A stretch of DNA of 64,000 nucleotides from Escherichia coli. GTDB lineage: Bacteria; Pseudomonadota; Gammaproteobacteria; Enterobacterales; Enterobacteriaceae. The position numbers are program-made. Positions within the stretch are counted from its first letter, which is position 1, and each line of letters starts with the position of its first letter. The stretch lies in the NCBI RefSeq assembly GCF_024700885.2, contig NZ_CP117016.1; one strand, given 5' to 3'. Below are positions 37,601 through 40,600 of this stretch, one piece after another.

Positions 37601-40600
37601 AGCAGCCGTTTCACCCACTAACCATGCTTTAAAGTTCAGAGTTTGTTTAGGTTTGCCTTTTCCCGTTGAACTGTCCTTCACGATAGGTTGCTTAATCTCT
37701 GCTCCCAGAGCATAACCTGTACCGTGCTGGTCACCAATAACCAGGCTAACGTTTGGAATTTCAGTTCCATTATCCATGTTAGACAGAGAATAGTTATCTG
37801 CGTTAGTGGAGTACGGATTACCGGTGAATGTGGTAGACATTGTCGTTTCAGTATTGAAATTACAGTCCTGTAAACGAATCTGGAAATCTTTTGGTGTGGT
37901 TGTTTTGCCGCCGGTTAAAGAACCCGTACCGATGCTGCCCATATCCACTTCCAGTTTATGATCGTCAGGAACAATTGAGCACGGGGAGTCTTCAATTGTG
38001 CCGTAAAATCTCACTGTACCGTTATTCCCTGCGGCAACGACTGATGCTGAAGTCAGCGCCCCCATGAGCATTGCCGTGGCAACTGCTGCTTTTACAAACT
38101 TACTCATTATTTGTCCTTAAATCATAAATAATTATAATATAAGCCAACTGAAATATTGACGCAGAGCTTCTTCAATTTTTACAGCGACTTTTAAGCAGCC
38201 AATGAACAGATTTTCAGCTCCTGAAAAAACAGGTTCCTTGATATAATATTCTTTGGCGTGCCGAACATGTTGATATTTTAATATGACTGATGCAATTTAA
38301 ATTTTCTAACATTAAAAGTTAGAAATACTTAATTAATGGACGGGGATAATAATTACTGAAATTTTTCATCTCAGTTATGAAGAATGAGTTCAAAAAAACA
38401 GCAAATGCAAAAATTCAGTGAATAAATCAAAGTCAAAAACAATCACATGGCAATGACTATCTTGTGATATTAATTTCGCAACGATATAATATTAAAACAC
38501 TATAATTAATATAAAATCAAGACCCAATAATATTTTTCACTTTAGTCATTATTTACCTAAAAATGCTTCCAGAAAAATAATTTATGAATAAAAGTAAATT
38601 TTCTTTCAATATGTAAATTTCCACAAATAAAAGCGTCATACCGTATAAAATTATGACTATTCGATCACAAGCGGATCATTGTTAGTACAATAAGATTAAA
38701 AAAATTCAACATTGCCAGAAAATAAAGGCCCGATAGCTTACGCCAGCGGGCCTTGTGCATGCGTATTAAATCGCCTTTGCCATCTTCAGATTACATGGGC
38801 TCATCTGCCAGTTAAATGTGCCGTTTCCGCTTTCATCAAGCGTTACGCTGGCAATGGCCGAGGTGGTAAACATAGGCGGCGTTTCGCCCGGACATAACTC
38901 AGCAACCAGATACCCGACTAAGGGTAAGTGGGAGATCACCAGTACCGAAGCAACACCTTCATTGGTCAACGCCTGTAAATAGGCACTGACCAGACCAACA
39001 TCGCCGCAGGGCGTTAACTCCGGCAGAACTTCTGCACTGGAAGGCAGGTTCAGACAATCCCCTACTTCTTCCAGTGTTTGCTCGGCTCGCAGGAACGGGC
39101 TCACCAGAACGCGTTCGATTTCCACTTTTTGACCTTTCAGCCAGTTCGCCATCAGGCGAGATTCGTCACAACCGTTAGTAGTCAGAGGACGAACCGAATC
39201 ACTGGCGGCATCGAGGGCTGCGTCGCCGTGACGCATGATAAAAACTTGCATATTGCACCGCTTTTGTTAACCAGATTCGCCCGTTTTCTTTCATCTGAAA
39301 CCAGAGAAAGAAAACGGTGGCCGGCATTGTGCCTTATCCATTCACCGAATGAAACGCTGTTTTTTACCTCAATGGCGTAAGTATAGTCAATATGCGTTTA
39401 CATTTTGAGCAACACTCCGCCATTCAGCGCGGATTCATATAGCTTTGACCTTCTTATTGCAGGTCAGTTGCAGTTGTTTTCCAAAAACTTTCCCCACGCT
39501 TGCTCATCTCGACTAAACGCTCGCAAGGGGTAAAACGGGAACCATACTGCGTGGCCAGTCGTTGCATTATTGCAACCACTTCACCCGCACCGAGAGAATC
39601 GATGTAGCGGAACGGACCACCGAGAAATGGCGGAAAACCAATGCCAAATACCGCGCCAATATCTCCGTCACGCACGCTACGGATAACCTGCTCTTCCAGA
39701 CAACGTACTGCTTCATTCAGCATCAACATCACACACCGTTCAGCTACCTGCGGTGCGGAGAGTCGCCCCTGCCCTTGTGTGCCAATCAGCGGGTAAATGG
39801 CAGGATCGACCTGTTTTTTGCTTTTACGCCCTTTCTGACCATAAAGATAGAAACCCCGGCCATTTTTTCTGCCTTTGCGATCGTCGTTCAAAATTGAAGA
39901 AACAACATTTGCAGGCGCGCTAAAACGTTCTCCATAAGCGGCTTCCAGTACAGGAATAATTTTAGTCCCGGTGTCGATTCCTACCTCATCCAAAAGTTGG
40001 ATTGGGCCTACCGGAAAACCAAATTTCACCAGCGCGGCATCAATGTGCTCTACCCGTTCACCTTCGGTCAACATGCGGATAGCTTCATTAATGTAAGGCG
40101 CTAAAATGCGATTGACGTAAAACCCGGCTTTGTCACGCACGACAATTGCCGTTTTACCCTGTTTTTTCGCCAGTTTTACTGTGGTAGCGATGGTTTGCGC
40201 CGATGTCCCCGCATGAGGAATAATCTCCACCAGCGGCATTTTTTCCACCGGACTGAAGAAATGCAGGCCAATAACTTGCTCAGGTCGCGTAGCGTGAGCG
40301 GCGATATCACCAATCGGTAAAGATGACGTATTCGAAGCAAAGATGGTATGAGCGGCGCAATTTTGCTCAACTTCCGCCACCATTTGTTGTTTTAATTCGA
40401 GATTTTCAAACACCGCTTCAATAATCAGATCGCGATGGGCAAAGCCGCGATAGTCTGTCGTTCCGGAGATTAATGCCAGCTGTTTGTCGCGTTCACTGGC
40501 TTTGAGATGACGACGGCGAACTTTGCCCTCCAGCTGATCCCAACTGTACTTCAGTGCATGATTTATGCCCTGCGGGTTGATATCTTTAATTCTGACCGGA

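What the first reader, a model, noticed from the sequence alone, without database searches (positions are those of the whole stretch)
38108..38765. Long AT-rich, ORF-free leader upstream of yfcV
About 650 bp between sixA and yfcV is strongly AT-rich with multiple A and T tracts and no ORF of 60 aa or more. This is typical of xenogeneic-silenced fimbrial promoters and leaves room for an unannotated small RNA or switch element.
Basis: inference. Interest (0 to 1): 0.35.

Follow-up and report, generated by a model that had tools for sequence, protein, structure and literature searches.

The report
Silenced AT-rich promoter region of Yfc fimbriae
The 658-bp gap between sixA and yfcV is the AT-rich, non-coding control region of a normally silent E. 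coli fimbrial operon, a kind of region already described in strain K-12, and it shows no sign of a hidden small RNA, small protein or DNA switch.

Summary
Positions 38108-38765 form a 658-bp gap between sixA and a yfcV-like major fimbrial subunit gene, both on the minus strand. GC is 28.7% against 49.3% for the window, the lowest of any stretch this size. No ORF exceeds 32 aa.

It is the regulatory region of the Yfc (Stf-like) chaperone-usher fimbrial operon. The K-12 counterpart is a catalogued "promoter island" that binds H-NS and RNA polymerase but gives little productive transcription. Overproducing BolA or inhibiting Rho raises yfcV expression there; TosR overproduction does so in CFT073.

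This window carries a different allele, about 55% identical to K-12 across the gap, found in 633 of 5426 complete genomes. Silencing of this allele is therefore inferred, not shown.

The suggested extras were tested and not supported:
- Inverted repeats are no better than in shuffled sequence, and no inverted copy occurs in 633 genomes.
- There is no pap-like GATC pair.
- There is no Rfam match and no conserved RNA structure.
- No small ORF is conserved.

Two additions. The sixA terminator occupies the far end of the gap. Three short blocks near yfcV are conserved across all alleles and in Pseudocitrobacter; their function is unassigned.

This is ordinary and largely known.

The parts
38108..38765 (-). 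Whole sixA-yfcV intergenic region: 658 bp, 28.7% GC, non-coding. It is the upstream regulatory region of the yfc fimbrial operon.
38715..38754 (-). sixA intrinsic terminator. The hairpin arms are 38754-38742 and 38737-38725 with a GUAA loop, followed by UUUAUUUUCU.
   Evidence: Inverted repeat I12. RNA fold -21.5 kcal/mol. Window z-scores -3.4 to -3.5. Every allele has a GCCC..GGGC hairpin at this place, with different inner sequence.
38499..38527 (-). Best sense-strand sigma-70-like site: TTGGGT (38527-38522), 17-nt spacer, TATAGT (38504-38499). The predicted start is near 38492, which would give a leader of about 385 nt.
   Evidence: It is the top PWM hit in this allele (7.9 bits) but does not exceed shuffles (8.5 +/- 1.6). 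It falls in the same alignment column as K-12 TTGAAA-17-TATAGT, which Shimada et al. list as the yfcV promoter (PMC3946193). It is not conserved in the UTI89 or O157 alleles.
38462..38490 (+). Antisense-directed promoter-like site TTGTGA-17-TATAAT (10 of 12 matches), overlapping the distal conserved TTAATATTATAT block.
38111..38138 (+). Second antisense-directed promoter-like site TTGTCC-16-TATAAT (10 of 12 matches), overlapping the yfcV ribosome-binding region.
38300..38333 (-). Weak AU-rich hairpin (UUUCUAAC / GUUAGAAA). It is specific to this allele and has no assigned role.
   Evidence: -9.3 kcal/mol, z -3.4. Hairpins in other alleles are out of register, and RNAalifold finds 0 pairs.
38247..38260 (-). 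Conserved block CACGCCAAAGAATA, at -153 to -140 from the ATG. Unassigned cis-element.
   Evidence: Invariant columns cluster here in four deep alleles (column-permutation P = 0.002). Also kept in Pseudocitrobacter vendiensis. Unique within the window.
38188..38212 (-). Conserved block AATCTGTTCATTGGCTGCTTAAAAG, at -105 to -81 from the ATG. Unassigned cis-element.
38108..38145 (-). Near-invariant block just upstream of the start codon. It contains the -10-like TATATT (38141-38136) and TATAAT (38136-38131), and the ribosome-binding site AAGGA (38118-38114) 6 nt before the ATG.
37541..38107 (-). yfcV-like major fimbrial subunit, the first gene of the operon. An intact usher (34818-37469), a chaperone, three further fimbrial-subunit genes and the yfcO-like adhesin gene follow.
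38766..39251 (-). sixA, the upstream neighbour. High identity with K-12 (about 97%) ends about 4 bp past its stop codon.

Best explanation
The region is the non-coding control region of the Yfc (Salmonella Stf-like) chaperone-usher fimbrial operon.

Its sixA-proximal 50 bp are the sixA transcription terminator. The remaining roughly 600 bp of 73% AT DNA most likely act as a platform on which H-NS nucleates and spreads. H-NS would trap or exclude RNA polymerase at the many promoter-like sequences on both strands and so keep the operon silent under ordinary growth. Any transcript that does start far upstream would cross a long untranslated stretch and be exposed to Rho-dependent termination. Expression would need an anti-silencer or activator.

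The three short blocks conserved within 155 bp of the start codon are the best candidates for where such factors and the working promoter act.

Shown here: the anatomy, the composition, the conservation pattern, and the absence of switch, RNA and ORF features. Shown only in K-12 or CFT073 by others: H-NS and RNA polymerase binding, and de-repression. Inferred: that this allele behaves the same way, and the roles of the conserved blocks.
For: Anatomy and composition:
- 658 bp at 28.7% GC, the lowest in the window, with no ORF over 32 aa.
- Promoter-like hexamer pairs occur at about 9 per kb on both strands, against about 0.6 per kb in neighbouring DNA of ordinary GC content.
- The gap is long in every allele, 558-687 bp, with 27-34% GC in the extracted segments.

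K-12 and CFT073 homologue, from the literature:
- Promoter island 2453647_489, H-NS-bound (PMC3661553).
- RpoD SELEX promoter TTGAAA-17-TATAGT with an HNS flag (PMC3946193).
- RpoS SELEX peak (PMC5493296).
- yfcV rises on BolA overproduction (PMC4337573), on bicyclomycin (PMC10980228), on TosR overproduction in CFT073 (log2 5.2; PMC5956150), and 1.9-fold with CsiR, which has a ChIP peak in the gap (PMC5217608).
- Cryptic chaperone-usher fimbriae are reported to be H-NS-repressed (PMC3559732).

Links between this allele and K-12:
- The best sense promoter candidate falls in the same alignment column as the K-12 one.
- The proximal blocks are conserved across alleles and in another genus.
Against: - There are no H-NS, RNA polymerase or transcription-start data for this allele, which is only 53-55% identical to the K-12, UTI89 and O157 gaps.
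- No promoter candidate scores above same-composition shuffles. The density of promoter-like sites is what the base composition alone predicts: 6 found against 4.4 +/- 2.0.
- There is no near-perfect H-NS high-affinity motif. Looser matches are not enriched over shuffles, and A/T tracts are not phased.
- The K-12 distal promoter was assigned from SELEX peaks by sequence inspection, and it is absent from the UTI89 and O157 alleles.
- The sense strand of the distal half has more G than C, which is not typical of a Rho-loading site.
Confidence: 0.75

Rival explanations
1. The gap is transcribed from a distal promoter near 38499-38527 as a roughly 385-nt 5' untranslated leader. Control would then be mainly post-initiation, through Rho-dependent attenuation, RNA structure or small-RNA pairing at the conserved proximal blocks. 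This is compatible with H-NS silencing rather than exclusive of it.
For: - The best sense promoter candidate lies in the same column in this allele and in K-12.
- K-12 has a mapped 5' end even further upstream, at -642.
- Bicyclomycin raises yfcV in K-12.
- The proximal blocks are conserved, but no canonical sigma-70 promoter fits them.
Against: - The candidate does not beat shuffles and is missing in the UTI89 and O157 alleles.
- RNAalifold finds no consensus fold for the one segment tested, around the 38300-38333 hairpin. Apart from that hairpin and the sixA terminator, no 100-nt window folds unusually well (z no lower than -2.6).
- There is no Rfam match.
- The K-12 -642 end lies inside the sixA terminator hairpin with 36 reads, so it may be a processing product.
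Confidence: 0.3
2. The gap holds an invertible, fimS-like DNA switch that turns yfc expression on and off.
For: The gap is long and sits upstream of a fimbrial operon. Several imperfect inverted repeats were listed.
Against: - The longest perfect inverted repeat with arms 50-620 bp apart is 9 nt, and 96% of dinucleotide shuffles do as well.
- All 633 genomes with this allele give one colinear match covering at least 80% of the query, with no second opposite-strand place.
- No recombinase gene flanks the operon.
Confidence: 0.02
3. The gap encodes an unannotated small RNA or small protein.
For: Promoter-like sites lie on both strands. One weak hairpin has z -3.4. Four ORFs of 25-32 aa stay open in most window-type alleles (one is interrupted in O158:H23).
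Against: - There is no Rfam match at E <= 1.
- There is no intrinsic terminator other than sixA's.
- The hairpin is not conserved in register.
- All four ORFs are interrupted by stop codons or lack a start codon in the deep alleles, and none has a Pfam match.
Confidence: 0.05
4. The gap is a pap-like Dam/Lrp methylation phase switch.
For: TosR, a PapB-family protein, raises yfcV in CFT073. The window allele has two GATC sites 11 bp apart, at 38663 and 38674.
Against: - Those GATC sites lie about 560 bp from the ATG and are not conserved.
- The GATC at -104, kept in 5 of 7 alleles, is absent here.
- No pair is spaced about 100 bp apart.
- There is no papI- or papB-like ORF in the gap or the operon.
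Confidence: 0.02
5. Most of the gap is functionless spacer. On this view it is AT-biased drift in a recombination-prone cassette, and only the last roughly 155 bp carry regulatory information.
For: - Deep alleles are only 53-62% identical across the gap, close to saturation for 72% AT DNA.
- Gap length varies from 558 to 687 bp.
- Only the proximal blocks pass the clustering test.
- An IS1 is tolerated in the distal part in one strain.
Against: - A long, AT-rich gap is kept in every allele and species examined.
- In K-12, the protein-binding signals (RpoD, RpoS, CsiR, H-NS) centre on the distal half.
Confidence: 0.15

Closest known systems
E. coli K-12 yfcV/sixA 'promoter island' (PI 2453647_489; Panyukov & Ozoline 2013, PMC3661553)
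   Same: Same chromosomal position between sixA and yfcV. Similar length (680 against 658 bp), the same AT-richness, and promoter-like sites on both strands. The best sense -10, TATAGT, falls in the same alignment column. The ribosome-binding region and the proximal blocks are the same.
   Different: The sequence is only about 55% identical across the gap and cannot be aligned by blastn. The -35 is weaker here (TTGGGT against TTGAAA). The GATC at -104 is absent here. The usher is intact here but is a pseudogene in K-12. There are no experimental data for this allele.
H-NS-silenced cryptic chaperone-usher fimbrial promoters of E. coli (yad, yeh, sfm, ycb, ybg, yra, yfc; Korea et al. 2010, as cited in PMC3559732)
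   Same: A long AT-rich upstream region before the major subunit gene, no expression under laboratory conditions, and de-repression by global perturbations.
   Different: The primary paper could not be read here, so the specific result for the yfc promoter is second-hand.
fimS invertible promoter of type 1 fimbriae
   Same: A non-coding region of several hundred bp that controls a chaperone-usher operon.
   Different: There are no flanking inverted repeats above chance, no FimB/FimE-like recombinase nearby, and no inverted copies in 633 genomes.
pap regulatory region (Dam/Lrp/PapI phase variation)
   Same: A long AT-rich fimbrial regulatory region. The B2-type yfcV allele (tested in CFT073) responds to the PapB-family protein TosR.
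   Different: There is no GATC pair about 102 bp apart, and no divergent papI/papB genes.

Membership tests
H-NS-silenced AT-rich promoter region / 'promoter island' | AT content far above the genome average over several hundred bp | tested here: met
   28.7% GC against 49.3% for the window; the lowest 658-nt stretch in 64 kb
H-NS-silenced AT-rich promoter region / 'promoter island' | [quoted passage not shown] | tested here: inconclusive
   6 sites in 658 bp (about 9 per kb) against about 0.6 per kb in neighbouring DNA of ordinary GC content. This is no more than its own dinucleotide composition predicts (4.4 +/- 2.0). The original definition uses the PlatProm score, which was not available.
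H-NS-silenced AT-rich promoter region / 'promoter island' | H-NS occupancy in vivo | not testable with these tools
   Reported for the K-12 homologue only (PMC3661553 column H = K; PMC3946193 HNS flag)
H-NS-silenced AT-rich promoter region / 'promoter island' | RNA polymerase binding with little productive transcription, relieved when silencing is perturbed | not testable with these tools
   K-12 and CFT073 literature only
H-NS-silenced AT-rich promoter region / 'promoter island' | Association with horizontally acquired genes | tested here: inconclusive
   The operon's GC is native (49.4%) and the locus is core, in 5385 of 5426 genomes. The cassette is nevertheless a deeply diverged allele (72.6% identity against 96-97% in the flanks), and alleles are shared across Escherichia species.
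Invertible promoter switch (fimS type) | Inverted repeats flanking a promoter-bearing segment | tested here: not met
   The longest perfect inverted repeat is 9 nt, and 96% of shuffles reach it
Invertible promoter switch (fimS type) | Site-specific recombinase gene nearby | tested here: not met
   The neighbours are sixA, fadJ and the yfc genes. The only mobile-element gene is the IS1397 transposase, 6.5 kb away.
Invertible promoter switch (fimS type) | Both orientations found among sequenced genomes | tested here: not met
   633 genomes gave 633 places, all covering at least 80% of the query; every listed row was a single colinear piece
pap-like Dam/Lrp phase-variation region | Two GATC sites about 100 bp apart in the promoter region, with papI/papB-type regulator genes | tested here: not met
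   The GATC sites are at 38663 and 38674 only, 11 bp apart, about 560 bp from the ATG, and not conserved. No regulator ORF is present.
Small RNA or cis-regulatory RNA | Match to a curated RNA family | tested here: not met
   Rfam 15 gave 0 matches at E <= 1 over 37000-40000
Small RNA or cis-regulatory RNA | Conserved secondary structure with covariation, or a promoter-terminator unit | tested here: not met
   RNAalifold found 0 pairs for the one segment tested, around the 38300-38333 hairpin. The only terminator is sixA's.

The most novel reading that the evidence does not exclude
Within a gap that has otherwise diverged almost to saturation, three short blocks are kept in every Escherichia allele and in Pseudocitrobacter vendiensis. 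They are CACNCCAAAGAATA at -153 to -140, TTCAWTGGCTG..TAWAA at -105 to -81, and the last roughly 45 nt. No canonical sigma-70 promoter fits them. They may be the binding sites of an unidentified dedicated activator or anti-silencer, or a 5' UTR control element, that switches on Yfc fimbriae. That signal is still unknown for these 'cryptic' organelles.
Probability: 0.25. Interest if true: 0.4.

Novelty: already known. Interest (0 to 1): 0.15.

Why it matters
yfcV is widely used as a marker for uropathogenic E. coli, and Yfc fimbriae are present in nearly all E. coli, yet the conditions that switch them on are unknown. This region is an ordinary H-NS-type silenced promoter region rather than a switch or an RNA gene, so the search for inducing signals can focus on the three conserved blocks within 155 bp of the start codon. 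The control region also exists as several deeply diverged alleles. Results from K-12 (for example the mapped promoter) or from CFT073, which carries the B2-type allele, therefore cannot be carried over to the 633 of 5426 complete genomes that carry this allele.

Tried and rejected
Computational tests with negative results:
- Rfam scan at a permissive threshold found nothing.
- Inverted-repeat search plus a shuffle test found nothing above chance.
- AA/TT helical phasing, as a proxy for curvature, was not above shuffles.
- The H-NS high-affinity motifs tCGATAAATT and TCGATATATT had no match with one mismatch or fewer, and looser matches were not enriched.
- A sliding RNA-fold z-score picked out only the sixA terminator and one weak, allele-specific hairpin. 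RNAalifold found no shared structure.
- Small ORFs are not conserved and have no Pfam match.
- GATC mapping gave no pap-like pair.
- A sigma-70 PWM scan on four alleles found no candidate above shuffles.
- The conserved blocks do not recur elsewhere in the window.
- A plasmid search returned only two chromosome-length E. coli records (4.9 Mb each) held in the plasmid collection.

Literature look-ups that failed:
- The Cappable-seq table was truncated before this position.
- The Thomason 2015 and Korea 2010 papers are not held.
- The supplements of Singh 2014, Conway 2014 and Kahramanoglou 2011 are not held.
- The hns/stpA expression supplement has no yfc entries.
- The cap on papers was reached before two fimbrial papers could be read.

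Readings of the conserved blocks as IHF, CRP, RcsB or sigma-54 sites were considered from memory only. None fitted all alleles, so none is claimed.
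Full report
**1. Observation**

The coordinates are exact. sixA (TIGR00249, E 2e-65) runs 38766-39251 on the minus strand. 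A fimbrial subunit gene (PF00419; best NCBIfam match StfA; 66% protein identity to K-12 YfcV) runs 37541-38107 on the minus strand. An intact 883-aa usher, a chaperone, three further subunit genes and a YfcO-family adhesin gene follow it. The gap between sixA and yfcV is 38108-38765, 658 bp.

GC is 28.7% against 49.3% for the window. This is the lowest value of any 658-nt stretch in the 64 kb. AT is 60-81% in 100-nt windows, and there are ten A or T runs of 5-7 nt. No ORF inside the gap exceeds 32 aa.

**2. What belongs to the region**

- *The sixA terminator.* The sixA-proximal end (38715-38754) is a hairpin of -21.5 kcal/mol followed by UUUAUUUUCU. Every allele has a GCCC..GGGC hairpin at this place with different inner sequence. 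About 50 bp of the 'leader' therefore belong to sixA.
- *Promoter-like sites.* The rest of the gap carries sigma-70-like hexamer pairs on both strands at about 9 per kb, against about 0.6 per kb in neighbouring DNA of ordinary GC content. That density is what the base composition alone predicts: 6 found against 4.4 +/- 2.0 in shuffles.
- *The best sense-strand candidate.* This is TTGGGT-17-TATAGT, with its -10 at 38504-38499. It does not beat shuffles. It does fall in the same alignment column as K-12 TTGAAA-17-TATAGT, which Shimada et al. list as the yfcV constitutive promoter with an HNS flag (PMC3946193). If used, it would give a leader of about 385 nt.
- *The ribosome-binding site.* AAGGA lies at 38118-38114, 6 nt before the ATG.

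**3. Evolutionary context**

The flanking genes are 95.6-97% identical to K-12, the yfc operon is 72.6% identical, and blastn cannot align the gap at all. High identity ends about 4 bp past the sixA stop codon.

yfcV-like DNA is present in 5385 of 5426 complete E. coli genomes, but the gap exists as deeply diverged alleles:

| Allele type | Genomes |
|---|---|
| K-12/O157 family | 3529 |
| B2/UTI89 type | 1227 |
| This window's type | 633 |
| E69-like type | 1 among these genomes |

Pairwise identity between the deep alleles is 53-62%. The gap is nevertheless long in all of them: 558-687 bp, with 27-34% GC in the extracted segments. Alleles are shared with E. whittamii and two unnamed Escherichia species (E1V33 and MOD1-EC7003).

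The operon's coding GC is 49.4%. The locus is therefore core and native in composition, and only its control region is AT-rich. 'Xenogeneic' is not quite the right word.

**4. What the literature shows for the homologous K-12 region**

- It is one of 78 'promoter islands': regions that bind RNA polymerase and form open complexes but give very little full-length RNA. It is marked as H-NS-bound in two ChIP-chip studies (PMC3661553).
- It binds RpoD and RpoS holoenzymes in genomic SELEX (PMC3946193, PMC5493296).
- A 5' end is mapped 642 nt upstream of yfcV. It lies inside the sixA terminator hairpin with 36 reads, so it may be a processing product (PMC3415461 supplement).
- yfcV rises on BolA overproduction, on Rho inhibition by bicyclomycin, 1.9-fold with CsiR, which has a ChIP peak in the gap, and on TosR overproduction in CFT073 (log2 5.2).
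- Cryptic chaperone-usher fimbriae are described as H-NS-repressed (PMC3559732).

Neither can be tested for this allele.

**5. Tests of the 'small RNA or switch' suggestion**

- *Invertible switch.* The longest perfect inverted repeat with arms 50-620 bp apart is 9 nt, and 96% of dinucleotide shuffles reach it. The 633 genomes with this allele gave exactly 633 places, each covering at least 80% of the query, with no opposite-strand place. No recombinase gene is nearby.
- *pap-like methylation switch.* The two GATC sites (38663, 38674) are 11 bp apart, about 560 bp from the ATG, and not conserved. The GATC at -104, kept in 5 of 7 alleles, is missing here. There are no papI or papB genes.
- *Small RNA or structured leader.* There is no Rfam match at E <= 1. 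Only the sixA terminator and one weak hairpin (38300-38333; -9.3 kcal/mol, z -3.4) stand out. Hairpins near that place in other alleles are out of register, and RNAalifold finds no shared pair.
- *Small proteins.* The four minus-strand ORFs of 25-32 aa are interrupted by stop codons or lack a start codon in every deep allele, and none has a Pfam match.
- *Curvature and H-NS nucleation motif.* AA/TT phasing at 10-11.5 bp is not above shuffles. No near-perfect high-affinity H-NS motif is present. Any H-NS binding would rest on general AT-richness.

**6. An addition: conserved proximal blocks**

In an alignment of the deep alleles, invariant columns cluster significantly (column permutation P = 0.002-0.007) in two interior blocks. 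These are CACGCCAAAGAATA (38260-38247) and AATCTGTTCATTGGCTGCTTAAAAG (38212-38188). The last roughly 45 nt before the ATG are also nearly invariant. All three are also kept in Pseudocitrobacter vendiensis. They do not recur elsewhere in the window.

No canonical sigma-70 promoter fits them in all alleles. They are the best candidates for the working, probably activator-dependent, promoter or for a 5' UTR element. Their function is not assigned.

**7. Mechanism**

Most likely (0.75), the gap is an H-NS-silenced control region. H-NS would coat the AT-rich 600 bp and trap or exclude RNA polymerase at scattered promoter-like sites. Stray long transcripts would be stopped by Rho. Expression would need an anti-silencer or activator acting near the conserved proximal blocks.

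The anatomy, the conservation pattern and the negative tests are shown here. Protein binding and de-repression are shown only in K-12 and CFT073. Transfer of that behaviour to this allele is inference.

A long transcribed leader with post-initiation control is compatible with this model and is given 0.3. The view that most of the gap is functionless spacer is given 0.15. A small RNA or small protein is given 0.05. A switch and a pap-like mechanism are given 0.02 each.

**8. Verdict**

The feature is real and was correctly located. Its main interpretation is correct in kind. It is already known at this locus in K-12. The window carries a minority allele for which nothing has been measured. Interest is low (0.15). 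The only mildly novel lead is the set of unassigned conserved blocks.

Noticed in passing
window 30230-31587: An IS3-family element (annotated IS1397 in the identical strain 1190) is inserted between smrB and the yfcO-like adhesin gene, at the far end of the yfc cassette.
   Followed up: partly
window ~45250-46900: A second AT-rich patch (GC below 33%) surrounds a 351-aa hypothetical ORF downstream of fadL. It holds 13 of the 30 promoter-like sites found in a 20-kb scan. The K-12 counterpart (yfdF/mlaA) is also a listed promoter island.
   Followed up: partly
window 30085-38769: The whole yfc cassette is a hypervariable allele: 72.6% identical to K-12, against 96-97% in the flanks. High identity ends about 4 bp past the sixA stop codon. 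Alleles are shared with other Escherichia species, which suggests old polymorphism or recombination across species.
   Followed up: yes
window 38247-38260, 38188-38212, 38108-38145: Three short blocks are conserved in all alleles and in Pseudocitrobacter vendiensis (L016). No known binding site or canonical promoter could be assigned to them.
   Followed up: partly
L019 (E. coli XJW9B277), about 460-510 nt upstream of yfcV: An IS1 is inserted in the K-12-type sixA-yfcV gap. IS insertion is a classic way of activating H-NS-silenced operons. Its effect here is unknown.
   Followed up: no
window 34818-37469; L002 6357-9002; L003 1501-2064: The usher gene is intact here (883 aa), whereas K-12 yfcU is a pseudogene. 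UTI89 yfcV is annotated as a pseudogene missing its C-terminus.
   Followed up: no
K-12 NC_000913.2 position 2454310 (equivalent to the sixA terminator, window ~38725): A published 5' end (36 reads) assigned to yfcV lies inside the descending arm of the sixA terminator hairpin. It is preceded by TAGATT with correct -10 spacing. It could be a weak promoter or a processing product.
   Followed up: partly
L012 (MAG labelled Collinsella sp., contig JAIJJM010000567.1): This 2.2-kb contig carries the window-type E. coli sixA-yfcV gap at 97% identity. It is probably E. coli contamination of the bin.
   Followed up: no
alignment column 718, about -104 from the ATG: A GATC site is kept in 5 of 7 alleles (E69, O157, E. 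whittamii, K-12, MOD1-EC7003). It is absent in the window and UTI89 alleles.
   Followed up: partly
window ~51700 and 58850-59350: Further short low-GC spots (below 33% in 200-nt windows). Not examined.
   Followed up: no
UTI89-type allele search: The 1227 matching genomes gave 1239 places, so up to 12 genomes have a second place for the B2-type gap. These could be IS insertions or rearrangements and were not inspected.
   Followed up: no
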